NCBI GenBank assembly: GCA_964016885.1
Contig: OZ024741.1
Span: 271,064,001-271,128,000 of the forward strand
Direction: 5' to 3'
DNA from: Eledone cirrhosa
Lineage: Eukaryota
Length of the DNA stretch: 64,000 bases
Below are positions 5,820-57,140 of the stretch, one piece after another (within the stretch, counting starts at the first letter, position 1; each line of letters begins with the position of its first letter). Position numbers and translations under genes: made by a program. The notes under the pieces were generated by a model. The model had not been told where the DNA came from. It made no database searches and saw only the letters and a list, made by a program, of their open reading frames with translations.

Positions 5820-6183
5820 AGTATTACTTTAGAAGGAGAATCAGGGGGGAGAGAGAGGCACTGCACCCCAGTAAATTTACTGAAAGGTGGGTGATTGAAG
5901 CAAAAATGGCCCGAGTGATTGTGCCTTCTCTGTTTATAAGCCTGTAGGTTGAGGAAGAGAGCAAAAGGAAGAAAGGAGCACTTGCACAACACGCTCCTGG
6001 AGTTGAGGGTTGTTTTATCGACGGGGTATTAAACAACCCATTTGTGGCGCCTCCCCCCTATTGGGGATTTCGATTGTTGTAATTGTTTGTTTTTATATTT
6101 TTTACACGACTGTATGTAAAATCCCCGGCATGTCTTTGTATTGTCCCCTTTTCTTGTTGCGCCCTTGTGGCTAATAAAGAAAT
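5820..6183 (+). mobile_element. 5'-truncated Tx1/L1 3' end in (CTAT)n
   Basis: Nearly identical to 45347-45710; (CTAT)n on both sides. Confidence 0.9.
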
Positions 6184-6251
6184 CTATCTATCTATCTATC
6201 TATCTATCTGTCTATCTATCTATCTATCCGTCTGTCTGTCTATCTATCTAT

Positions 6252-32741: not shown

Positions 32742-33069
32742 ATTTGCACAGTGACACTTCTAGACATATTTCAGACATCTTAGACCTCATTAACCAAGAA
32801 TAATCTTAGAATCTTAAATGACATCTATCTGAGAAAGATATCTATCTATCTATCTATCTATCTATCTTGATAGAGTAAGACACGCTTCGCATCGGCTCCG
32901 CTATTCCATCGGGATTTACCCTTACTATTGTAAGTACCGGATAAATTTTTTAGTGCAACACATTTGGAACACTAACCCCTGTTATTTAGGGAAACATTTT
33001 TGCATTTACCCCCTTTTTAGGGGGTAAAATAAATATCTATTTTTGCCGAAAAATTTCTTTCTTGGCAGC

Positions 33070-34904
33070 ATGGCGGAAAAGATGGCAGACATGTCTGCCA
33101 TTAGCTCTGCCACGCCCCCCAAGTCTGAAGAACAAAAAATAATTACAACAAAATTAGACATTGAAACAAACAAACAAAATGAAAAAACAAATGTTAAGGA
33201 AAATGAGCAAACAGAAAACAAACAAACAGAAAATAATACAAATAACGACAGGGCAACTTTCGCCCAGAAAACAAAACAATCCATTACATACACACCAATT
33301 GACCTAACTGCCGCCAGAGAAAAACTGGCCGAAGCAAAGAAACACATTGTTTTGGGGGAGAACGGAATGTTTTCCATTAACTCCCCCCCAGAATTCAAGA
33401 AAGCCAGAGCAGAAAACACAGTTCTCTACAGAACTATACTGAACCAGACAAGAAAGCCAGCACAGCCCAGCCAAATGGAAATAGAGTTAGTCCTAAAAGA
33501 CTATATGAAGAATATTCTCTTCATACGAAAGGACCGACTCTATGGCAGCATTTCGGTCCTAACAAGAGACAAAGAAACGGCGGAGAAGCTTTCCCTAAGC
33601 CCACTCTCGTCGACAACATATAGCTTCTATCCCTCCTACATGGGTAGAAGAACACAGAGAGTAAAAGTAAAAACAATGCTGCCCACAATGGACTTCTGGT
33701 GGGCTATTGCTGGCTTCATTGATATGGGCGAAGACACAATGCAGTCAATGGGGAAGGCAACTGGAGATGCGTTCCTGGGAATGGGCCTCGACATACTAGT
33801 CCAAATGAGGCCCGAAAGAATAGCACAAATCCCGGATCGCATCTGGCTGGATGACCTTACCCCAATAGACATAATTGTAGAGGGGAGAAGACCAGCATGC
33901 TATTTATGCATGGAAAGGGGACACGTTAAGGCTAACTGCCCGAAACGTATCCCCCAAAAAGGACTATTGCCCACACCCACCACAAACAGTACACCAACAC
34001 CACCCACCTCTAAAAATACACTAATACCACACACAGCAAACAAAATACAGACACCACCAACCACAAACACAACACAAACATCACCACCACCAGCACCAAA
34101 CACAAGCACGACACAAAAATCACCACCACCAACCACAACACAAACATCACCACCACCATCACCAACCACAAGCACGACACAAACATTACCACCACCACCA
34201 CAAAACCCATTCCAAACAAGTAATAAAAAAAACAGTAACAAATCTACCCCTCCCGCAAAAAAAAAACAACCACACAACACGTCCCTCCCACCTAGCGCTG
34301 AAGAGTTTCCCCCAACTTCTGAAGAAGAAGGAGGAGAAGCCTTCAGACAAGTTAAAAGAAAAAAAAGAAAACACACACCCAGCACACCACAAATAACCCA
34401 CACACAAACACCAACTCCAATCAAAAACACCCCACCCTCAACAAACAAAAATAAATCTGCGCCTCCCCTCTCCGAAACATTGACAGCATCACAAAAAAAG
34501 ACGTTGCAATACACATATATAAATAAAGAAAACAAAAAACTGGTTAAATTAATAAACAATAACCCTATGGTGCAGACCGAAGGGCCAAACTTTATCTCAA
34601 CAGAGAACTTCACCCATTTAAAAATGATAAAGGTCCCTCTGGACCTTTATCGTTCCTTAAAAGAACAATTTAGACGGGACGTGAGCCCCCCCCCTGTTTA
34701 AAACCGTTGAATCGCGTCCTCTTGAAAGATTTCCCCATAACCGCCCCTCTCCCTGACACAACTCCAAATACCCCAACCCCACCACACACGTGTACCCCCA
34801 CACCACCACAAAACATCCCTCCACCCAACACACCTGATGCCATGGAAATTACGCAACCCGGAGAGGTAAGTGCTTTTCTTTCTTCACTTTCAACACCAAA
34901 ATAG
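33070..34904 (+). CDS. Tx1 ORF1, gag-like zinc-knuckle protein; frameshift in the C run at about 34690
   Basis: CYLCMERGHVKANC; Pro/Thr-rich tail; KRKKRK. Copy 2 shows the frame continues PPC.KP.NRVLLK. Confidence 0.85.
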
Positions 34905-37900
34905 ATCAATTGAGAGTTGGCTGTTTGAACGCGCGTGGCCTGGGCTCAGCTTGGAAGCAAGCAAAGCTTCTAAGTGACCTCAGGTCACAAAGTATAGATG
35001 TGATGGTTGTTTGCGAGAGTCGGATCAGCAGCGTGAGACAGCTGGCGCCCGCCTTCGATGACTTTGAGATGCACGCATCTCTCTGTCAACCCGGAGGCGG
35101 GGGGGGGGGAGTTGCCGTACTGCTGGATAAACGTCTGACTCTCGACGTACAGATTGTTCACTCGGACCCGGGGGGTCGATTACTGGTGCTGGACGTCGGA
35201 GGCGGTGAAGGCGGGGCTTTCAGACTGGTCGGTCTTTATGCTCCCTTCGGGGCGGAAAGAGCCGACTTCTTCCAGCGTCTGGAGACTTTTCTAGGAACGT
35301 CGCGTTCCCTGCTTTTAGTGGGGGACTGGAATGGAATCCTAGATGCGCGTTGGGACTATGCAGGGGCATGTCTCGATAGAGGGGGGTGTAGCAGCCTCAA
35401 GGGGTTACTCGATCGATTCGACCTGGTCGATAGATTTCGACTAGATTGTCCAACTGCGCCAACCTGGACCTGGGCAAACCGCAGTGGACAATCTAGATCG
35501 TACCTAGATAGGTTTTTGGTTAGGAGTAAGGATAGGGACGTATTTAGTTGTCCAGAACTGATCATGGTTGGCTATTCAGATCACAAATTAGTGACCTGCG
35601 TGGTCAACCTTGATAGAACGCATAGACAGGGTCCCGGTTACTGGAAGATGAACTTGTCCTTACCGACAAAGAAAGATTACAGAAACCGGATTAGTAGCTT
35701 AGTTAAGATGCGGTTGACGGGAGCGATCGTCAACAGTAGGTGGTGGATATCTCTAAAGAGAGAGATTAGAGTAAGTTCGATAGGTTACAGTAAGGAACTA
35801 GCGGCGAATAGAAATAGGAGGGAAAGGGAGTTAACAGATAAACTAGAAGAGGCGATTAGGAGCGGAGACGTAGCCAGAGTGTTAGCGACGAGAACGGCAT
35901 TGAGCCAGTTCTTTGACGCGAAGCACGAAGGCTGCGTTATCCGAAGTAAAATACGTGCTTTAGGAAACGAGGGGACCAAAGCTGTTAGCTGGGCCCGCGT
36001 GACAGAAGCCAAGAGTGGGATTAAATCCACCATTCGGTCTTTGCGAGACCAGGATGGACGGGTGATCCTTGAACCTGAGCGAATGTGCGAGACCTTTCAA
36101 AGGCACTTTGCTCGACTGTTCGGAGGTGGCGGGGGGCCGGACGGGGATGTGGACTTCGGTCCATACCTCGACGGTCTACCGCGTCTTTCGAGCGGCGAAG
36201 CGGAGTGCTGCGAAAGGCCAATCACAGCCACTGAAATCGGGGAAGCGCTCAGCCAATGCAGCAGACGCAAATCCCCGGGTCTCGATGGTCTACCATACGA
36301 ACTTTATTTAGCTATGCCGGTCTTGTTCTCCGAACTCCTCGAGGCTGTCTATTGCAACTGGCAACAGAACGGGAGAATTCCCTGTTCTGTGACCAAGGGC
36401 GTGGTCACGCTAGTGAGGAAGGACGAGAGCAAGGGGGACGACTTAAGTAACTTTAGGCCCATAACTCTGCTGAATGCAGAGTTACAGATTTTGGCCAAGG
36501 TGTTGGCGAAGAGGTTGGCGCTTGTGGTGGGTGGTTTGGTGGGAGACGCGCAGACATGCGCTATCCCGTCCAGGTCCATTCACGACAACCTCCACCTCAT
36601 GCGATACATCATAGAGAGGGTTGGCTACGAACCCGGCTTTGGTGGGGCCCTGATCAACTTGGATCAATCTAAGGCGTTCGATAGGGTCGACCATGGTTAC
36701 CTGGATGCGGTGCTAGCGGCGGCGGGCTTCGGACCCGTTTTCAGGGGCTGGATTTCTGCCATGCACAGTGGCAACATCTACTCTAGGATTAAAGTAAACG
36801 GCTACCTCTCGGAGCCGTTTCAAATCACCCGATCCATCAGACAGGGGTGTCCCCTCTCCTCCCTTCTGTACGTATAGACTCTCGAGCCACTGCTGCGGAA
36901 GTTGGAGTTGCTGCGGGGCATACCCCTGGAACCGGGATTGCACAAAGCGGTCTCGGCCTATGCCGACGACGTAACAGTAATGGTGGCGGACACCTCGGAA
37001 ATCGGGGCGATCGCCACCCTACTGGAGGAATACGAAAGGCTGACGGGGGCTAAGCTGAACCAGGACAAGTCAGTCGCTTTGCAACTCGGAACGTGGAGGG
37101 GCAAACCGATGCCGTTAGACGGTGTCGTCGGGCGGTGGACGGAGGGCCCGGTGAAGCTGCTCGGGGTCTGGTTCGGACCGGACCTCCAGGTGGAGAAGAA
37201 TTGGGGCGAGGTGACGAGCAGGGTGTTTGCGCTGACCCAGAAGTGGGCCAAGTGCAAACTATCACTGAAAGGTCGGGCGGAGGTGACGAACGCTTACATA
37301 GCGTCCGTCATCTACTACCGCCTGACCGTCGTGCCTTGCCCCAAGGAAAAGCTCACCATCATGGAACGCATGCTCTTCCAGTTCCTCTGGAAGAAGCGGC
37401 CTCCCATGGTGAGGAGATCCATCTGCTGCCAGCACCCTTCGAAAGGAGGGCTGGGTATGCCGTGGCTGTTGATGCGTAGGCACGCATTGAGGCTACGGCA
37501 TCTACAGGTATTCCTCAACGGTCAGCCGGTGTGGGCCCCGTTTGTGAGGCGAGCCTTCCCGCAGCTCGTCTCGCTCACCGAACTGCAATCCTGGGTGAAG
37601 CAAAGACCGAGAAAACTGGGCAACTGGCACACTGAGTGTGCCCAGGCGCTCACGGCTATCTGGCAAGCGGACCCGACTGTCAGTGGAGAATCCACCTCGA
37701 CATTCTATAGAGGGTTGGTGGCTAGCAGGGGCGACGACACCCTTGGAGAGTCGCTAGGCATGGAGGAGGACGAACTGGCCAGCCTGTTCGGTAGAACTTT
37801 CGGCCCGGGACCCATGGACAACTTCCAGAGGTCCCTAGCCTGGCAGTGTTACCGGGGGGGCTCTGCCCGTTCGAGAAAAGCTCTACAGACACGGGCGCCC

Positions 37901-38342
37901 GGGCAGGGATCCCGCGAAAAAGATCTGTCCCAGATGCGTGCGCGACGAGGAAACCGTTGCGCATGCACTGGTACACTGCCCGGGCGTTGCCGATCTGTGG
38001 GGCTACGTCGAACGACTGCTGTCGCGTGTGGCGCCGATTCGATTAACCGCCGAGTCTGTGGTGAACATCAAGCCACCTCCTCCCTTCAGAAATGAAGCAG
38101 AGGCGGTCTTTCTGTGCGTAATAGCCATGATGAAAGAGGTTGTGTGGTGGACGCGCCTGAAAGGTCTGAGGTCGGGTGACTTTCTCTCCGGCCATCACCT
38201 GGTTTACTTCTTCCGATACCACTTCGGAAGAAGAATCAGGATGGAGAGAGAAGTGCTTGGTCCCAGACAGTTTTATGAAAGGTGGGTGAAAGAAGCGAGA
38301 ATGGCCCGTGTAAATGGGCCTTCTCTCTACATTGTTCTGTAG
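34901..38342 (+). pseudogene. Tx1 ORF2 (APE endonuclease, reverse transcriptase, C-terminal zinc finger)
   Basis: CLNARGL, GDWN, SYLDRF, SDH, PGLDG, FRPITLLN, DQSKAFD, RQGCPLS, AYADD, CPRC..ETVAHALVHC; premature TAG at 36875; frameshift in the G run at about 37855; ATA where copy 2 has ATG. Confidence 0.93.
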
Positions 38343-38598
38343 GTGAAGAAGTGAAGAGGAAAGGGGGAGCGCCTCCTCTCTGGGCTTCCCCCGCGAAAAG
38401 AGTTGCACACTTTTCGGGGGTATGTGCAATCCCCAACACGCCCCCTCCCTTTTGAGGACTTTTTATTGTTATATTATTATTGTTATTCCTTTTTTCTTTA
38501 CTCGATTTATGTAAACTCCCCCACTGTGTAAATGTCCCCTTCTTTTGTGCCCTCGTGGCAAATAAATAGAAATTTATCTATCTATCTATCTATCTATC

Positions 38599-41500
38599 GT
38601 TGATAGTGGACGTCTTTCACATCGGCTCTTCGATTTTGGATCACTACTTTGTTATTTGTGAGTGTGTTATTTGAATTTTGTTATTATTGTTTACTCTAAC
38701 CCCTCGTTTGGGACTGTAGACGTAGGGTAAATATATTTTCGCCCCTTTTGGGGTGAAAATCTTTAATTTAAAATGTTTATTGATATCGTTAAAAACGAGG
38801 AAGCCATATTGCAAGCTAACGCCACGCCCACAAAAAAAAGCGAGAAAGAGGGAACAACAATTGAAACTGTTGAACTACCCTCCTCTCGAATGGAAAAAAC
38901 ACTGTTAATTTGAGTGAAAACCCAAATTTTGAAAAAGATAAAAGGGAAAAAAATACCACAAAAAATGGGATTAATAAAACCAACAACATTGCAACAACAA
39001 ACAACAATAAACGAAGGAAAACAACAAAGATAGCAACATTTCTTTTGCCCAAACGGTAAAAAAAACGATCGAATACAAATCCATAGACATTACTAACGCT
39101 AAAGAAAACTTACTAAATGCCAGAAAATACGTATCTTTTGGGGAGGATGGTTCTTTTACGATCAACTCCCCAGAAGAAGTTCGTCAACAGGCATATAGGA
39201 ATACTATAACTTTCAGGACTATATCCAACGCAACAAGAAAACCAGCTCAATTGACAGAAAGTCAAATTGAGCTGGTTCTGAAAGACATTAAAAAAGACAT
39301 ACTCTTTATGCCAGCATTATGGTCCGAATGAAGGACCAAATGCTGGCTCGAAAATGCTCGGTGGCACCTATAGTGTCACCACAATACACCTTCTTCCCCA
39401 CATATAAAGGAAGAAGAACACAAAGACTAAGAATGTGGAGCTCAACGCCAGAAGTAGACATCTGGTCCGTCCTGACAGGATTCGCGGACCTAGAAAAGAA
39501 CATTCTAGTATCAGCAGGTGAGTCCACAAGTGGACTATTCGGGGGGAAAAGTCTGGAGGTTCTCATACAGATGAGTCCAGAGAGAATCGCCGGAATACCC
39601 GACCGAGTACTACTGGATGGTCGAACCTTTATTAATATTACGGTGGAAGGCAGGAGGCCCTCATGTTACCACTGAGCTGGCAGAGGTCACCTGAGGACTG
39701 CCTGCCCTCTACTAACAACAAAAAAACCACAGCTTCAAACACCACAACAACAACAAAAACAACCAGCACCACCACCACAAAAACAACAAAATACACCACC
39801 ATCACCACCACCACCACAGCGACAACAAAAACCAACAACACCACCTCCAGCACCACCACCACAACAACAACAAAAACTTAGAGCACGAAACAAATCACAG
39901 TCACACCCACCTACCCCACACAGAAAACAATCAAAAATACACACACCAACACAACACTACCACAAAATATCCCTCTACCCCGGAACACGGACGAAAACCT
40001 CCTTACATCGGAGCATAGCGAAGATGAAGGAGAGCCGTTCCGACCAGTAAAAAGGAAAAAAAGGAAACATACCACTAACAGAAACCAAACAAACACAGAA
40101 GAAACCAACACAACACAAAGCACCTCTCCCCATTACACAACACTAACAGCGTCACAGAAAAAAACATTACAGTACACTTACATCAACAAACAAAACAAAA
40201 AACTGCTCAATATAATAAACAGCAACCCTTCAGTTTGCACCGAAGGGCCAAATTTTAAGACAGTGGATGACTCTCCACACCTCAAAATGATAAAAGTCCC
40301 CATGAACCTTTATCAAACTTTAAAAAACGTTTATAAAGAGGACGTGGGGCCCCCCTGTAACAAACCGTTTAACCGCGTCCTCTTAAAAGGTTACCCACCC
40401 CCTCCACAGACACCCACACAACTCCAAATACCCCAACCCCACCACACACTAATAACCCCCCACCCCCACCAACCCCTCCACCACCCCCATGGAAACTGAA
40501 CAGCCCGGACCCCGGGACGCAGAGAGGTAAGTGCCTCTTTCTTTACCACCAACATGGCTATGTTAAGAGTAGGTTGTCTAAATGCGCGTGGCTTGGGCTC
40601 ACCTTGGAAGCAAGCTAAACTTCTAAATGACCTCAGGTCACGAGGTATAAATGTGATGGTTATTTGCGAGGCCCGGATCAGCAGCGTGCAACAACTAGCC
40701 CCCACCTTTGATGACTTTGAGATGCACGCATCTCTCTGTCAGCCCGGAGGTGGGGGTGGGGTTGTCGTTCTGCTGCAAAAACATCTGGGCCTCGCTACAC
40801 AGACGGTACACTTGGACCCGGAGGGTCGACTAGTGGTTCTGGACCTTGGCAGTGGTGAAGGCGAAGCTTTTAGGCTGGTCGCCGTTTACGCTCCCTTTGG
40901 GGCAATGCGGTCGGACTTCTTCCATCGTCTGGAGACTTTTCTAGGGACGTCCCGCTCCTTGCTTTTAGTGGGGGACTGGAATGGTATGCACGTTGGGACT
41001 ATGTAGGGGCATGTCCCGATAGAGGGGGGTGTAACAACCTCAAGGAGTTAATCGGCCGATTTGACCTGGCCGATAGATATCGATTAGATTTTCCGACTGT
41101 GCCAACCTGGACTTGGACAAACCATATCGGTCAATCAAGATCGTACCTAGATAGGTTCTTAGTTAGAATTAAGGATATGGACTTTTTAAGTTGTCCAGAA
41201 ATGCTCATGGTGGGCTATTCAGACCACAAGTTAGTGACCTGCGTAGTCCACCTTGATAGAACGCATAGGCAGGGACCCGGTTACTGGAAGCTCAACTTGT
41301 CCTTACCGGAAAGTAGAGCTTACAGGGACCGGATTAGAACCTTAGTTAAGGAGCGGTTGACGGGCGCCATCGTCAACAGCAGGTAGTGGGGCTCTCTGAA
41401 AAGAGAGATTAGAGTAGTTTCAATAGGAGTTAGTAAGGAGTTAGCCTCAGATAGAAATAGGAAGGAAAGGGAGTTGGTAGTTAATGTTGAAGAGGCAACG

Positions 41501-44191
41501 TGGCCAGTGTGCAAGCGTCGAGAACGGCCTTGAGCCAGTTCTTCTACGCGAAACACGAAGGCTGCGTTGTCCGAAGCAAAATACGTGCTCTGGGAAACGA
41601 GGGGACCAAAGCTGTTAGCTGGGCCCGCGTGAGAGAAGCCAAAAGTGGGATTAGTTTGCAAGACCAGGATGGACGGGTGATCATTGAACCTAAGCAAATG
41701 TGCGAGGCCTTTCAAAGACACTTTGCCCGATTGTTCGGGAGGGGCGGGGGCCGGTTGGAGATGCGGATTTCGGTCCATACCTCGACGGCCTGCCCCGTCT
41801 TTCAGAAAAGGAGGCGAGGTCCTGTGACGGGCCGATCTCAGCTGCTGAAATAGGGGACGTGCTGAGCCTATCCGGCAAACGCAAATCTCCAGGGCTCGAT
41901 GGTCTGCCCTACGAACTATATATTAATATGCCGGACTTGTTCCCCGATCTCCTCGAGGCGGTCTACTGCAACTGGCAACAGAACGGGAGAATTTCCTGTT
42001 CTGTGACCAAGGGCGTAGTCCCACTAGTGAGGAAGGACGAGAACAAGGGGGATGACATTAGTAATTTTAGGCCCATAACTCTGCTAAATGCAGAGTTAAA
42101 GATTTTGGCCAAGGTGTCAGCGAAGAGGTTGGCGCTTGTCGTGGGGGGGGGGGGCTTGGGGGGAGATGCGCAGGCATGCGCTATCCCGTCCAGGTCCATC
42201 CACGACAACCTCCACCTCATGCGATGCATCATAGAGAGGGTTGGGAACGAACCCGGCTTTGGTGGGCCCCTGATAAATTTAGATCAGTCTAAAGCTTTCG
42301 ATAGGGTGGACCATGGTTACTTGGATGCGGTGCTAGCGGCGGCTGGTTTCGGACCCGTTTTCAGGGGCTGGATCACTGCCATGCATAGCAGCCGCATCTG
42401 CTCTAGAGTCAAGGTGAACGGCTACCTCTCGGAGCCGTTCGAAATCACCTGCTCCATCCGACAGGGGTGCCCTCTCTCCTCCCTTCTGTATGTATTGGCT
42501 CTCGAGCCACTACTGCGGAAGTTGGAGTTGTTGCAGGGCATCCCTTTGGAACCGGGATTGCGCAAAGCGGTGTCGGCCTACGCCGATGACGTAACAGTAA
42601 CGGTGTCCACCACCGCGGAAATCGAGGCAATCGGCACCTTACTGGAGGAGTACGAAAGGTTGACAGAGGCTAAGCTGAACCGAGACAAGTCAGTCGCTTT
42701 GCAACTCGGCGAGTGGAGGGGCAAACCGATGTCGTCCGACGGTATCGTCGGACGGTGGACGGAGGGCCCGGTGAAGTTGCTTGGGGTCTGGTTCGGACCG
42801 GACCTCCAGGTGGAGAAGAAATGGGGTGAGGTGACGAATAGGGTGCTTGCACTGACCCAGAAGTGGGCCGAGTGCAAACTATCCCTGAAAGGTCGGGCGG
42901 AGGTGGCGAACGCTTACATAGCGTCCGTCATCTATTACCGCTTGACTGTCGTGCCTTGCTCGGGTGAGATCCTCGCCAAAATGGAGCGCGCTCTCTTTCA
43001 CTTCCTTTGGTCTGCCCTGGTGAGGAGATCCATCTGCTGTCAACACCCTTTGAAAGGAGGGCTGGGGATGCCGTGGCTAAAAATGCGTAAACACGCATTG
43101 AGGCTACGGCACCTCCAGGTATTCCTCACCGGTCAACCGGTGTGGGCCCCGTTTGTGAGGCGAGCCTTCCCGAGGCTCGTCTCGCTCACCGAGCTGCAGT
43201 CCTGGGTGAAGCAAAGACCGAGAAAACTGGGCGACTGGCACACCGAGTGTGCCCAGGCGCTCACGGCTCTCTGGCAGGCGGACCCGGCTATCGGTGGAGA
43301 CTCCACCTCGTCATTCTATAGAGGGCTGGTGGTTAGCAGGTGCGACGACGCCCTCGGAGAAACCCTAGGCATGGAGGAGGACGAACTGGCCAGCCTATTC
43401 GGTAGGACTTTCGGCCCGGGACCTATGGACAACTTCCAGAAGTCCTTGGCCTGGCAGTGCTACCGAGGGGCTCTGCCCGTTCGGGATAAGCTCTACAGAC
43501 ACGGGCTCCCGGGTAGGGACCCCTCGAAAAAGATTTGTCCCAGATGCGTGCGCGACGAGGAAACCGTTGCGCATGCATTGGTACACTACTCGGGCGTTAC
43601 CGATCTGTGGGGCTATGTCGAACAACTGCTGTCACGGGTGGGACCAATTAGGTTGACCACCGAGTCCATTATAACGATCAAGCCGCCCCCCCCCCTTCAA
43701 AAATGAAGGAGAGGCGGTCTTCCTCTGTGTAATAGCGATGGTAAAAGAGGTTGTATGGTGGACGCGTCTAAAAGGGCTGAGGTCGGACACCTTTCTTTCC
43801 CGCCAACAACTGGTCCTTTTCTTCCGATACCATTTCGGAAGAAGGATCAGGATGGAGAGAGAGGTGCCCACCCCAGACAGTTTTATGAAAGGTGGGTGAA
43901 AGTTGCGAGAATGGCCCGTGTGAATGGGCCTTCTCTCTATATCAGCCTGTAGGTGGAAAAGGATGAAGGAAGAAGGGAGCACCCTCTCTTTGTGCTCCCG
44001 TAGAGAAGTGTCGCACATTTTTTTTTTCGGGGGTGTGTGTGACCCCAAAACGATCCCTCCCTATTGAGGACCTTTTTGTTTTAATTTTATTTGTTATTAC
44101 ATTTTTTTTACTCGATTTATATGTAAACCCCCCCCCCCCCCCATGTATATGTCCCTCTCTTTTGTGCCCTCGTGGCAAATAAATAGAAATT
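38599..44191 (+). mobile_element. Full-length L1/Tx1 retrotransposon, copy 2 (diverged subfamily, several frameshifts)
   Basis: ORF1 remnants at about 38770-40530 (FPTYKGRRTQR, VEGRRPSCY); ORF2 40554-43952; (CTAT)n at both ends. Confidence 0.92.
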
Positions 44192-44199
44192 TATCTATC

Positions 44200-45710
44200 G
44201 GTCTGTCGGTTTGCAACTCGGTACGTGGAGAGGCAAACCGATGACATCCGACAGCATCGTTGGACGCTGGACGGACGGACCGGTGAAATTGCTCGGGGTC
44301 TGGTTCGGTCCAGACCTCCAGGTGGAGAAAAACTGGAACGAGGTCACGGCCAAGGTGTTTGTACTCACTCAGAAGTGAGCAGAGTGCAAACTGTCCTTGA
44401 AAGGTCGAGCGGAGGTGGCGAACACTTTCATAGCGTCCGTCATCTACTACCGCTTGACTGTCGTGCCTTGTCCCCGTGAACACCTCGCCAAGATAGAACG
44501 CATGCTCTTCCAGTTTCTGTGGAAGAAGCAGGCTCCGTTGGTGAGGAGATCCGTCTGCTGTCAGCACCCTTCCGACGGAGGGCTGGGAATGCCGTGGTTG
44601 ATGATGCGCAAACATGCGCTGAGGCTGCGGCATCTCCAGGTATTCCTCACCGACCCCCAACCGGTGTGGGCACCGTTTGTGAGACAGGCTTTCCCACAGC
44701 TCGTCTCGCTGACGGAGCTGCAGTCCTGGGTGAAGAAAAGACCGAAAACGATGGGCGCCTGGCACATTGAATGCGCTCAGGCGCTCACAGTCCTCTGGCA
44801 AGCGGGCGCAGCAATCAGTGGAGACTCCACTTCGACATTCTATAGAGGGATTGTACGTTACAAGGGCGACGACGTGCTCGGAGAGACTCTGGGCGTCGAA
44901 GACGATGAGCTCACCAGTCTGTTGGTAGAACTTTCCGCCCGGGACCTATGGACAACTTCCAGAGGTCCCTGGCCTGGCAGTGCTACCGAGGAGCTCTACC
45001 GGTTCGTGACAAGATCTACAGGCACGGACGCCCTGGCAGGGATCCTTCCAAGAGGACGTGTCCAAGATGTGCGCAGGACATTGAAACAGTTCTGCACGCA
45101 ATTGTACACTGCCCGGGCGTAAGCGACCTGTGGAACTATGCAGAACAACTGCTGTCGCGTATGGGACAAATCCAGTTGACTGCCGAGTCCATAGTAAGGA
45201 TCAAACCGCCAGACTCTTTCAAAAACGAAAGAGAGGCGGTTTTCCTCTGTACGGTGGCTATGGTGAAAGAAGTTATATGGTGGACGAGGTTGAGAGGATT
45301 GAGGACAGATGCCTTTCTCTCCGGACAACAATTGATTCCCTTCTTTAAGTATCACTTTAGAAGGAGAATCAGGGGGGAGAGAGAGGCACTGCACCCCAGT
45401 AAATTTACTGAAAGGTGGGTGAATGAAGCGAAAATGGCCCGAGTGATTGGGCCTTCTCTGTTTATAAGCCTGTAGGTTGAGGAAGAGAGCAAAAGGAAGA
45501 AAGTAGCACTTGCACAACACGCTCCTCGAGTTGAGGGTTGTTTTATCGACGGGGTATTAAACAACCCATTTGTGGCGCCTCCCCCCTATTGGGGATTTCG
45601 ATTGTTGAAATTGTTTGTTTTTATATTTTTTACACGACTGTATGTAAAATCCCCGGCATGTCTTTGTATTGTCCCCTTTCTTGTTGCGCCCTTGTGGCTA
45701 ATAAAGAAAT
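44200..45710 (+). mobile_element. 5'-truncated L1/Tx1 retrotransposon, copy 3 (third subfamily)
   Basis: Begins inside the RT C-terminus (LQLGTWRGKPM) right after TATCTATC; ends AATAAAGAAAT-CTATCTATC. Confidence 0.92.
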
Positions 45711-46192
45711 CTATCTATCCGTCTGTCGGGCTGTCTGCATGTCTCACAACCAAACCGCCACCACCACCACCACCACCACCAACATCACCACCACCACCAC
45801 CACAACCGCCGCCTCCACGACTACGACCACCACCACAACCGTCGCCGCCGCCGCCACCACCGCCACCACCACCAAAAACCGACGCCACCACCACTACGAC
45901 CACCACCAACCCCGCCGCCACGACTACGACCACCACCACAACCGTCGCCGCCGCAGCCACCACCACCACCACCACCACCACCACCATGCTAACGGATAAT
46001 TAATCAGTTTTAATTGCCGATGTATTTTTGGGGTTTAACTGATAAACCTTGAATGTCAAAAATGACGGAAGGGTCAGAGGTTAGCATGAAGGTGGAGAGG
46101 GAGAGAGGGAGAGAGAAGAAGGGGGAGAGAAGGAGAGAGAGAGAGAGGGGGAGGAAGGAAGAGAGGGTGACATATATAGACAGACGCAGTGA

Positions 46193-54469: not shown

Positions 54470-54870
54470 GGGGAACGTTACTGCGAGGTTGTTTTACACC
54501 CCGTAGATAGAACAACCAGGAGGACGTTTTATAAGTGTTCCTGTCTTCACTCGTTTGTCTTCTTCAACCTACAGAGAAGGCCCATTCACTCGGGCCATTT
54601 TCGCCCAATCACCCACCTTTCAGCGAATTTATTGGGGTGCAGCACCTCTCTCTCTACTCTCACCTTCCTTCTGAAGTGGTATTTAAAGAAGGGGATGAGT
54701 TGTTGTCCAGAGCGAAACGTGTTTGCCCTCAGTCATTTCAGTCTCGTCCACTATATCACTTCTTTCGCTATAGCCACCAGACAAAGGAAAACTGCCTCTC
54801 CTTCGGTGTTAAATAAAGGCGGCGGGGTAATCCTCACGGTGGACTCGGCTGACAACTGGATTCGTCCCAC
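54470..54870 (-). mobile_element. Tx1 ORF2 C-terminus and partial 3' UTR
   Basis: VGRIQLSAESTVRITPPP..EAVFLCLVA; its 5' junction abuts (GATA)n. Confidence 0.85.
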
Positions 54871-56060: not shown

Positions 56061-57140
56061 TATTTCTTTATTTGCCACAAGGGCGCACAAGAAAAGGGGA
56101 CAATACAAAGACACATGCCGGGGATTTTACATACAGTCGTGTAAAAAGGTTTTAACATGAAAGATAGATATATTTCTTTATTTGACACAAGGACGCACAA
56201 GAAAAGGGGACAGTACAAAGACATGCCGGGGATTTTACATACAGTCGTGTAAAAATATTGAAACAATTATAACAATCGAAATCCCCAATAGGGGGGAGGC
56301 GCCACAAATGGGTTGTTTAATACCCCGTCGATAGAACAACCCTCAACTTCAGGAGCGTGTTGTGCAAGTGCTCCTTTCTTCCTTTTGCTCTCTTCTTTAA
56401 CCTACAGGCTTATAAACAGAGAAAGCTCAATCACTCGGGCCATTTTTGCTACATTCACCCACCTTTCAGTAAATTTACTGGGGTGCAGTGCCTCTCTCTC
56501 CACTCTGATTCTCCTTCTAAAGTGATACTTAAAGAAGGGAATAAATTGTTGTCCGGAGAGAAAGGCATCTGTCCTCAGTCCTCTCAATCTCGTCCACCAT
56601 ATAACCTCTTTCACCATAGCCACTGTACAGAGGAAAACCGCCTCTCTTTCGTTTTTGAAAGAGGTTGGCGGTTTGATCCTTACTATGGACTCAGCAGTCA
56701 ACTGGATTTGTCCCATATGCGACAGAAGTTGTTCTGTATAGTTCCACAGGCGGTTTCAATGTGCAAGGCGTGCAAGGCGGTTTCAATGTCCTGCTCGCAT
56801 CTTGGACACGTCCTCTTGGAAGGATCCCTGCCGAAGCGTCCGTGCCTGTAGATCTTATCTCGAACGGGGAGAGCTCCTCGGTAGCACTGCCACGCCAGGG
56901 ACCTCTGGAAGTTGTCCATAGGTCCCGGGCGGAAAGTCCTACCAAACAGACTGGCGAGCTCGTCGTCTTCGACGCCCAGAGTCTCCCCGAGCACGTCGTC
57001 GCACTTGTAAAGTACTAATCCTCTATAGAATGTCGAAGTGGAGTCTCCACTGATTGCCGTGCCCGCTTGACAGAGGACTGTGAGCGCCTGAGCGCAACAA
57101 TGTGCCCATCTTCTTTGGTCTTCGCTTGACCCAGGACTGG
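56061..57140 (-). mobile_element. 5'-truncated Tx1 (copy-3 subfamily) with a repeated 3' tip
   Basis: MDNFQRSLAWQCYRG..CPRC..WWTRLRG; the last ~90 nt occur twice (56061-56150 and 56171-56255), each followed by CTAT units. Confidence 0.9.

What the first reader, a model, noticed from the sequence alone, without database searches (positions are those of the whole stretch)
34861..38345. Tx1 ORF2 is framed as one spliceosomal intron (conserved AG|GTAAGT ... CTGTAG|GT)
Seen: between ORF1 and ORF2, both diverged full-length copies share an identical 13-mer GAGAGGTAAGTGC (GT at 34866 and 40527) in otherwise poorly alignable sequence; it is a consensus U1 donor. At the other end, all six copies that include the ORF2 end (5946, 38342, 43952, 45475, 54570 minus, 56403 minus) finish with a pyrimidine-rich tract plus CTGTAG|GT. 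Here the stop codon TAG doubles as a candidate acceptor, and a purine-rich GAA/GAG enhancer-like stretch follows. Inference: splicing would remove the whole ~3.4-kb APE-RT region and give an ORF1-only subgenomic mRNA that keeps the 3' end. That could set ORF1p:ORF2p stoichiometry or act as a host-controlled on/off switch. I know of no description of this in a Tx1 family. Caveats: indels make the spliced reading frame differ between copies, and copy 2 has a competing CAG 7 nt upstream.
Basis: partly seen in the sequence, partly recalled or inferred. Interest (0 to 1): 0.85.

Follow-up and report, generated by a model that had tools for sequence, protein, structure and literature searches.

The report
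LINE RNA zips shut its ORF2
In this abundant, recently active jumping-gene family the two ends of the reverse-transcriptase gene are complementary and are predicted to pair, folding the whole 3.4-kb gene out as one loop and burying a conserved splice-donor signal; this likely protects the uncut RNA and limits enzyme production, while actual splicing-out of the gene has not been seen.

Summary
The donor AG|GTRRGT at the ORF1 end is kept in 13 lineages of this LINE (ORF2 DNA down to 68% identical) and in three ORF1 reading phases, so it is probably a real U1 site. The 'acceptor', its pyrimidine tract and the purine-rich 'enhancer' are mostly one arm of a long-range duplex: ORF1 end, spacer and ORF2 start pair with ORF2 end and 3'UTR (predicted -67 to -82 kcal/mol, best window of the element in 13 of 13 lineages, with compensatory changes). 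One young lineage keeps the donor but has no AG at the ORF2 stop. No spliced genomic copy was found (0 of 379 in the window's subfamily; 0 of 56 candidate hits elsewhere). No RNA data were available. Splicing remains possible: the would-be spliced frame stops within 3 codons in 9 of 12 lineages. Best reading: a fold-back that loops ORF2 out, buries both splice-like sites and brings the 3' end near the ORF1 stop. This scan noted the donor and the pairing before on other copies in this genome; I retested both.

The parts
32868..38572 (+). Full-length LINE, copy 1 (subfamily I), with (TATC)n on both sides
   Evidence: ends approximate to a few bases
33070..34904 (+). ORF1 (611 aa in intact L069; CCHC knuckle seen by eye). 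In this copy it stops early at 34699-34701 after a 9-C run at 34686-34694
   Evidence: no Pfam hit, no homolog
34863..34871 (+). U1-type donor GAG|GTAAGT (GT at 34866), phase 0 of ORF1 in this subfamily
34852..34923 (+). 5' arm of the predicted long-range duplex (ORF1 end, donor, pyrimidine stretch, ORF2 start)
   Evidence: -72.8 kcal/mol, 57 pairs
34901..38342 (+). ORF2 (endonuclease, RT, zf-RVT). ATA stands at the position of the ATG of other lineages and overlaps the ORF1 stop TAG (34902-34904). This copy has a stop at 36875-36877 and a frameshift near 37855
38316..38407 (+). 3' arm of the predicted duplex (ORF2 end, stop, purine-rich start of the 3'UTR)
38340..38342 (+). ORF2 stop TAG = candidate acceptor; lies inside the duplex opposite the ORF2 start
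38561..38566 (+). AATAAA near the element's 3' end, 221 nt after the ORF2 stop
40507..40576 (+). Copy 2 (J-like lineage): 5' arm with donor at 40527 (phase 2; its TAA is the ORF1 stop of that lineage) and ORF2 ATG at 40554
   Evidence: -66.6 kcal/mol
43926..44013 (+). Copy 2: 3' arm with ORF2 stop at 43950-43952
44201..45727 (+). 5'-truncated copy of lineage W directly behind copy 2
5826..6208 (+). 5'-truncated W-type 3' end
56159..57139 (-). 5'-truncated W-type 3' end
54570..54804 (-). Degraded 3' end with a short deletion before the ORF2 stop

Best explanation
This Tx1-type LINE keeps complementary arms around the start and the stop of ORF2 that are predicted to pair into a 45-60-pair duplex, which would loop out the whole 3.4-kb ORF2, bury a conserved U1-type donor together with the ORF1 stop, the ORF2 start and the acceptor-like ORF2 stop, and likely keeps the RNA unspliced and stable. 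Shown: the arms, their lineage-specific co-variation, the conserved donor, and the absence of spliced genomic copies. Inferred steps: (1) U1 binds the donor while ORF2 is being transcribed and guards the nascent RNA against early 3' end formation; (2) when the 3'UTR emerges the duplex closes, covers the acceptor-like site and, in several lineages, the donor itself; (3) in the cytoplasm the fold-back puts the 3' end about 0.2-0.27 kb instead of 3.6-3.7 kb from the ORF1 stop, which would shield a two-gene RNA from nonsense-mediated decay; (4) the buried ORF2 start is reached only by ribosomes that have just finished ORF1, keeping ORF2 protein scarce. The pairing itself I put at about 0.9; this functional package at 0.45.
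For: Duplex -66.9 to -82.2 kcal/mol in 11 of 11 lineages, z -4.5 to -8.7 against 100 dinucleotide shuffles, and the best of 215-217 windows of each element always covers the ORF2 stop; same for two more lineages (-69.6, -71.3; best of 161 and 162 windows). Own-lineage arms rank first or second in 14 of 19 rows of a cross matrix. Register fixed: ORF2 start opposite ORF2 stop; C-G changes to A-T in lineage K although both sides alter amino acids, G-C to A-T in X; a 4-base insertion is mirrored on both arms in E. Donor paired with 3'UTR in A, B, L, W, X, Y. With the first 8 intron bases left free for U1 the duplex still holds -33 to -55 kcal/mol over the acceptor. Lineage X is young (copies 99% alike), has a perfect donor and the duplex but TAA at the ORF2 stop. 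Subfamily I has ATA in place of ATG, overlapping the ORF1 stop, in 99 of 100 listed copies, which fits termination-reinitiation (PMC5972666, passages). Engineered fold-backs of 26 nt suppress decay (PMC2689704, passages); U1 blocks early termination in the EVD element (PMC5580714, section 8).
Against: No RNA, probing or reporter data; the duplex is a computed two-strand fold without competing local structure or proteins. Own-lineage arms rank only 3rd to 15th in 5 of 19 rows (C, D, J, W, copy 2). Poly(A) hexamers in the 650 nt before the donor are present in 8 of 11 lineages only and ORF1 is A-rich anyway, so the U1-guard step has no direct support. The model does not explain why the would-be spliced frame stops within 3 codons in 9 of 12 lineages. 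Six distant full-length relatives from metagenomes show no duplex, so other two-ORF LINEs manage without it. Whether the RNA is polyadenylated at the AATAAA is untested.
Confidence: 0.45

Rival explanations
1. One reading: a fraction of transcripts is spliced from the donor to the AG of the ORF2 stop before the arms pair, giving an ORF1-only mRNA whose stop is rebuilt in the last exon; zipped transcripts stay full-length.
For: Donor kept in three ORF1 phases: 2 in A, D, G, J, K, L, W, X; 1 in E, Y, Z; 0 in I, T (tree). Spliced frame stops within 3 codons in 9 of 12 lineages with an AG against 5 of 24 other frames (Fisher p 0.003). In Z the second stop varies between TGA and TAA. TAG at the ORF2 stop in 12 of 13 lineages; tract 62-81% pyrimidine; about 240-nt last exon ending in AATAAA. 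Precedent: EVD subgenomic gag RNA (PMC5580714).
Against: Lineages are related; by hand about 4 matches in 8 independent events, p about 0.06. G, J and W would read on for 28-79 codons; X has no AG, and its next AG|GT gives a 71-codon extension. My prediction that W has a phase-1 donor failed. The acceptor lies inside the helix, 25-47 positions from the donor, so the fold hides rather than joins the sites. No spliced copy: 0 of 379, gap probe 0 against 387 in the control, 0 of 56 hits in other lineages; this is weak evidence because an ORF2-less RNA needs ORF2 protein in trans.
Confidence: 0.35
2. The donor is a by-product: Arg codon plus ORF1 stop plus bases held by the duplex spell AG|GTRRGT; no U1 role, and only the duplex matters.
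For: The variants GTAAGT, GTAGGT and GTGAGT are exactly TAA, TAG and TGA in phase-2 lineages; AGG changes to CGG (still Arg) in L132, L137, L141; +1, +5 and +6 are paired in most lineages; a similar AG|GTGGGT arises from codons near the ORF2 end in 7 of 11.
Against: In E, Y, Z, I and T the TAR is out of frame with ORF1 yet the 8-mer stays; its pairing partner and register differ between lineages while it does not; 7 of 8 columns invariant against 0 of 22 neighbours and 18% of four-fold sites.
Confidence: 0.15
3. A 40-60-nt mini-intron from the donor to an AG in the fifth codon of ORF2 fuses ORF1 to ORF2.
For: In phase-2 lineages an AG there is in frame, and it is CAG in X; a pyrimidine stretch follows the donor.
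Against: The site is AAG in A, D, G, J, K, L, absent in W, and out of frame in E, Y, Z, I, T (read by eye); the pyrimidine stretch is the pairing arm; most lineages keep an ATG.
Confidence: 0.03

Closest known systems
Tx1-clade non-LTR retrotransposons that target microsatellites (Kibi, Koshi, crocodilian Tx1; PMC4494074, passages seen)
   Same: Two ORFs, endonuclease-RT-zinc-finger ORF2, insertion into a microsatellite ((TATC)n on both sides in 6 of 6 fetched full-length subfamily I loci plus the window copy).
Arabidopsis Ty1/Copia EVD shGAG splicing (PMC5580714; abstract and section 8 read)
   Same: A conserved U1 site at the end of the structural gene; U1 both enables a short RNA and blocks early termination of the full-length RNA.
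   Different: LTR element, short intron plus early termination, shown by RNA data; here a LINE, a 3.5-kb putative intron, a long-range duplex, and no RNA evidence.
Human L1 splicing and SpIREs (PMC5860796, passages seen)
   Same: Splice sites kept in a LINE RNA; spliced RNAs can be reinserted (131 of 6,609 full-length copies).
   Different: Those splices lie in the 5'UTR or ORF1 and are dead ends; none frames ORF2; here 0 of 379 copies are spliced.
Engineered poly(A) fold-back that suppresses nonsense-mediated decay (PMC2689704, passages seen)
   Same: A duplex just downstream of an early stop codon pairs with sequence near the 3' end.
   Different: Artificial 26-nt insert directly before the poly(A) signal; here natural, 45-60 pairs, about 150-200 nt before the signal, and overlapping start, stop and splice-like sites.
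SART1 and L1 termination-reinitiation of ORF2 (PMC5972666, PMC10275272, passages seen)
   Same: ORF2 start close to or overlapping the ORF1 stop; RNA structure downstream of the stop matters in SART1.
   Different: The SART1 structure is described as lying downstream of the stop-restart site, not as a pairing with the 3'UTR 3.4 kb away.

Membership tests
Tx1 clade (L1 group) non-LTR retrotransposon | ORF2 with N-terminal AP-like endonuclease, RT and C-terminal zinc finger | tested here: met
   PF03372, PF00078, PF13966; homologs share them
Tx1 clade (L1 group) non-LTR retrotransposon | Separate upstream ORF1 with zinc knuckle | tested here: met
   611-aa ORF1 with a CCHC motif seen by eye; no Pfam hit
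Tx1 clade (L1 group) non-LTR retrotransposon | Target-sequence preference | tested here: met
   (TATC)n 5' and 3' of subfamily I copies; other lineages sit in other repeats
Tx1 clade (L1 group) non-LTR retrotransposon | RT groups with named Tx1, Kibi, Koshi, Keno in a tree | not testable with these tools
U2-type spliceosomal intron spanning ORF2 | Consensus 5' splice site, conserved | tested here: met
   AG|GTRRGT in 11 of 11 lineages plus T; one degraded copy in Z
U2-type spliceosomal intron spanning ORF2 | Conserved 3' splice site (pyrimidine tract, YAG) independent of other constraints | tested here: inconclusive
   TAG in 12 of 13 lineages, absent in X; same bases are the stop codon and a pairing arm
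U2-type spliceosomal intron spanning ORF2 | Branch point 18-40 nt upstream of the AG | tested here: inconclusive
   no clear consensus site by eye in the 40 nt printed; not scored
U2-type spliceosomal intron spanning ORF2 | Precisely spliced genomic retrocopies | tested here: not met
   lineages K, E, T, Y, Z not covered for their own junctions
U2-type spliceosomal intron spanning ORF2 | Junction reads in RNA | not testable with these tools
Conserved long-range RNA duplex | Stability above shuffles and above all other windows; compensatory changes | tested here: met
Conserved long-range RNA duplex | Formation in cells | not testable with these tools
   needs probing or cross-linking

The most novel reading that the evidence does not exclude
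A LINE with a two-state switch that removes ORF2 either physically or covalently: if the arms pair first, the RNA stays full-length with ORF2 looped out, both splice sites hidden and the 3' end beside the ORF1 stop; if the spliceosome wins, the 3.5-kb ORF2 intron is cut and a stop-rebuilt ORF1-only mRNA supplies bulk ORF1 protein. This would be a retrovirus-like spliced/unspliced balance in a non-LTR element, set by a 3.4-kb RNA zipper whose 3'UTR arm mimics the U1 5' end.
Probability: 0.3. Interest if true: 0.85.

Novelty: new variant of a known kind. Interest (0 to 1): 0.62.

Why it matters
How two-gene LINE RNAs make much ORF1 and little ORF2 protein, and how they survive with a stop codon 3.7 kb from their 3' end, are open questions. 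This family offers a natural, co-evolving structure that puts the ORF1 stop, ORF2 start, ORF2 stop and a U1 site in one helix, with 13 lineages as ready-made compensatory mutants. It makes fold-back protection from decay, gated reinitiation and regulated ORF2 splicing directly testable, in a large young family (4,145 copies match the endonuclease start) of a genome whose closest named relative in the protein search is an octopod.

Tried and rejected
RNA evidence: none could be obtained, so junction reads are untested. Spliced retrocopies: none (subfamily I 0 of 379, two of the 379 not inspected; four acceptor-side hits were point mutants; 56 hits elsewhere were 53 point or short-deletion mutants, 2 inversions, 1 patch). 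L177 looked like a donor joined to foreign DNA but is a 24-26-nt match inside another LINE's 3' end with matching bases on both sides: not a splice. Prediction that 3'UTRs starting GT-TGA go with phase-1 donors: failed for W, held for Z (two degraded copies), and T turned out phase 0 with a matching stop. Other conserved acceptors inside ORF2: 79 conserved AG columns, the two best (near ORF2 positions 414 and 2809) have tracts no richer than the stop site and were not followed. No conserved acceptor in the 3'UTR by eye. Read-through of the 3'UTR as a coding extension in G/J: lengths vary from 35 to 79 codons between copies, rejected. Poly(A) hexamers: no conserved position. ORF1 homolog search: nothing. 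Distant metagenome relatives (8 of 33 loci examined, 6 with an ORF2 stop): no duplex, no donor within 80 nt of the ORF2 start; one has a donor-like site at its ORF1 stop.
Full report
Observation. The 13-mer occurs at 34861 and 40522 only, and CTGTAG|GT at six places, as stated; all six are ORF2 3' ends. The window lies in G000, a 3.0-Gb assembly. Copy 1 is a full-length two-ORF LINE: ORF2 carries endonuclease, RT and zf-RVT domains, and (TATC)n flanks both ends in the window and in 6 of 6 other full-length copies of its subfamily that I fetched. The closest named protein is from Argonauta hians (61% over residues 700-1146), so the host is probably an octopod; this is inference. A repeat annotation of Octopus vulgaris lists recently active L1-Tx1 families and does not mention splicing or ORF1 (PMC13282606, passages).

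Sampling. A degenerate motif for the endonuclease start matched 4,145 places. I fetched 40 loci around it and 120 more for further lineages, and used one representative for each of 13 lineages (my letters A, D, G, J, K, L, I, W, E, X, Y, T, Z; I is copy 1's, J is closest to copy 2). ORF2 DNA identity among the 11 in the tree falls to 68%; T and Z were added later and are not in the tree.

The donor. AG|GTRRGT is present in 11 of 11 lineages; 7 of its 8 columns are invariant against 0 of 22 flanking columns and 34 of 185 four-fold sites in ORF2. It sits in phase 2 (Arg then the ORF1 stop) in A, D, G, J, K, L, W, X, in phase 1 in E, Y, Z and in phase 0 in I, T, which needs several shifts on the tree. 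Against it: in phase-2 lineages its three variants are the three stop codons, three copies have CG|GT with Arg kept, and several of its bases are paired. The phase-0 call for I rests on two intact copies and on motif conservation; a C-run upstream is out of frame in 27 of the 30 copies most like the window. The Z call rests on two degraded copies. I put selection for U1 binding at about 0.75-0.8.

The duplex. Earlier notes of this scan mentioned a pairing; I tested it. The stretch from donor -20 to ORF2 start +25 pairs with ORF2 stop -25 to +75 at -66.9 to -82.2 kcal/mol in 11 of 11 lineages, z -4.5 to -8.7 against 100 dinucleotide shuffles of the 3' arm, and the best of 215-217 windows along each element always covers the stop; the next best lies at -45 to -62. 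T and Z agree, as do both window copies (-72.8 and -66.6). In a 19 by 19 matrix the own arm ranks first or second in 14 rows and 3rd to 15th in five. The register is fixed, ORF2 start opposite ORF2 stop; 7 of the 13 core positions tabulated are paired in at least 10 of 11 lineages, one (the base three before the start against the A of the stop) in none, and the outer ones in 3 to 9. K changes C-G to A-T with an amino-acid change on both sides, X changes G-C to A-T, E mirrors a 4-base insertion on both arms. The CTG before the stop, the GT after it, the pyrimidine tract and the purine-rich 'enhancer' all lie in this helix, and so do GAGAGG and GTGC of the 13-mer. In A, B, L, W, X and Y the donor itself is paired with a 3'UTR stretch that resembles the U1 5' end (the U1 sequence is recalled).

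The acceptor. TAG ends ORF2 in 12 of 13 lineages, with a 62-81% pyrimidine tract, but X, a young lineage, ends in TAA and keeps a perfect donor and the duplex. For splicing: the would-be spliced frame stops within 3 codons in 9 of 12 lineages against 5 of 24 other frames (p 0.003, not independent; by hand about 4 of 8 independent events, p about 0.06). Against: G, J and W read on 28-79 codons; my prediction for W failed, held for Z and was met differently in T. With the first 8 intron bases left free for U1 the duplex still covers the acceptor at -33 to -55 kcal/mol, so the fold hides the site rather than presenting it.

Spliced copies. Of 379 subfamily I copies with the 21 bases before the donor, 360 go on with GTAAG, 17 with GTAGG, none with GT plus C, G or T; two were not inspected. 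From the other side 4 hits were point mutants. A gapped probe for ORF2-less copies found 0; its control found 387. In lineages A-D, G, J, K, L, W and X all 56 hits were read: none joins the 3'UTR. The own junctions of K, E, T, Y and Z were not covered. Human L1 has about 2% spliced copies (PMC5860796, passages), but those keep ORF2; an ORF2-less RNA needs the enzyme in trans, so the zero is weak evidence. No RNA data were available.

Range. Of 33 metagenome loci I examined 8; the 6 with an ORF2 stop (26-30% identical to the query) show no duplex (-12 to -29 kcal/mol, rank 75 or worse) and none of the 8 has a donor within 80 nt of the ORF2 start; L199 has GG|GTGAGT at its ORF1 stop. The architecture looks restricted to this clade so far.

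Mechanism. Shown: complementary co-varying arms, a conserved donor, ORF1 stop 3.6-3.7 kb but ORF2 stop only 191-267 nt from the first 3' AATAAA, and an ATA in place of the ORF2 ATG overlapping the ORF1 stop in subfamily I (99 of 100 listed). Inferred: U1 guards the nascent RNA as in EVD (PMC5580714, abstract and section 8); the closing duplex hides both sites; the fold-back shields the ORF1 stop from decay as engineered fold-backs do (PMC2689704, passages), and 17-48 kcal/mol of duplex would remain 15 nt past the ORF1 stop in the 11 lineages where this could be computed; ORF2 is made by reinitiation, which tolerates near-cognate starts (PMC5972666, passages; PMC10275272, passages). Odds: this package 0.45, functional ORF1-only splicing 0.35 (compatible with the duplex as a brake), donor as by-product 0.15, mini-intron fusion 0.03.

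Known or new. It works like a Tx1-type microsatellite-targeting LINE (PMC4494074, passages); membership by tree is untested. Nine library searches (listings and abstract starts only) showed no paper on an ORF2-spanning intron or an ORF2-closing duplex in a LINE. Subscription journals, repeat databases and all supplements were not seen, and repeat-database entries may bear on novelty. Verdict: a real, unusual RNA architecture; the intron reading is half right and unproven. New variant of a known kind, interest 0.62.

Noticed in passing
window 34901-34904; 99 of 100 listed subfamily I copies: A young subfamily with about 380 near-identical full-length copies has no ORF2 ATG: ATA stands in its place and overlaps the ORF1 stop (ATAG), while ORF2 is open for 1,166 codons in L070. 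Suggests near-cognate reinitiation or a -1 shift.
   Followed up: partly
window 34686-34694: A C-run late in ORF1 varies from 6 to 13 among copies and decides whether ORF1 reaches the donor; many copies also have frameshifts at G/C runs in ORF2 (slippage or assembly error).
   Followed up: partly
L160 and L180, at the donor: Two lineage X copies have an inversion whose breakpoint lies exactly at the donor, at the edge of the predicted duplex.
   Followed up: no
L177:370-394 (L224:1477-1502): A 24-26-nt match to the lineage X ORF1 end sits inside the 5'-truncated end of an unrelated LINE (RTE-like by eye), with matching bases on both sides: likely template switching between families.
   Followed up: yes
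L199:1920-1935: A distant L1-like element from a metagenome (26% identity) has GG|GTGAGT followed by the ORF1 stop, the same phase-1 layout as lineages E and Y, without the duplex.
   Followed up: no
window 32868-45727; G000 C1 4.236-4.260 Mb and others: Elements of different lineages form head-to-tail arrays at about 5.7-kb spacing, each inserted in the microsatellite tail of the previous one; lineages A/B sit in a longer tandem repeat, X ends in (TTA)n.
   Followed up: partly
L161, L162, L166, L169, L188, L190, L085: Older lineages share the third donor variant GTGAGT.
   Followed up: no
window 33010-33024 and 38743-38756; 38400-38430: A short C-run/T-run/G-run hairpin in the 5'UTR and a stem in the 3'UTR after the duplex arm recur in several lineages; possible promoter or 3' recognition structures.
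   Followed up: no
P0003-P0034: Full-length ORF2 relatives at 35-44% identity occur in unnamed ENA and JGI assemblies; their DNA was not retrieved, so donor and duplex are untested at this intermediate distance.
   Followed up: no
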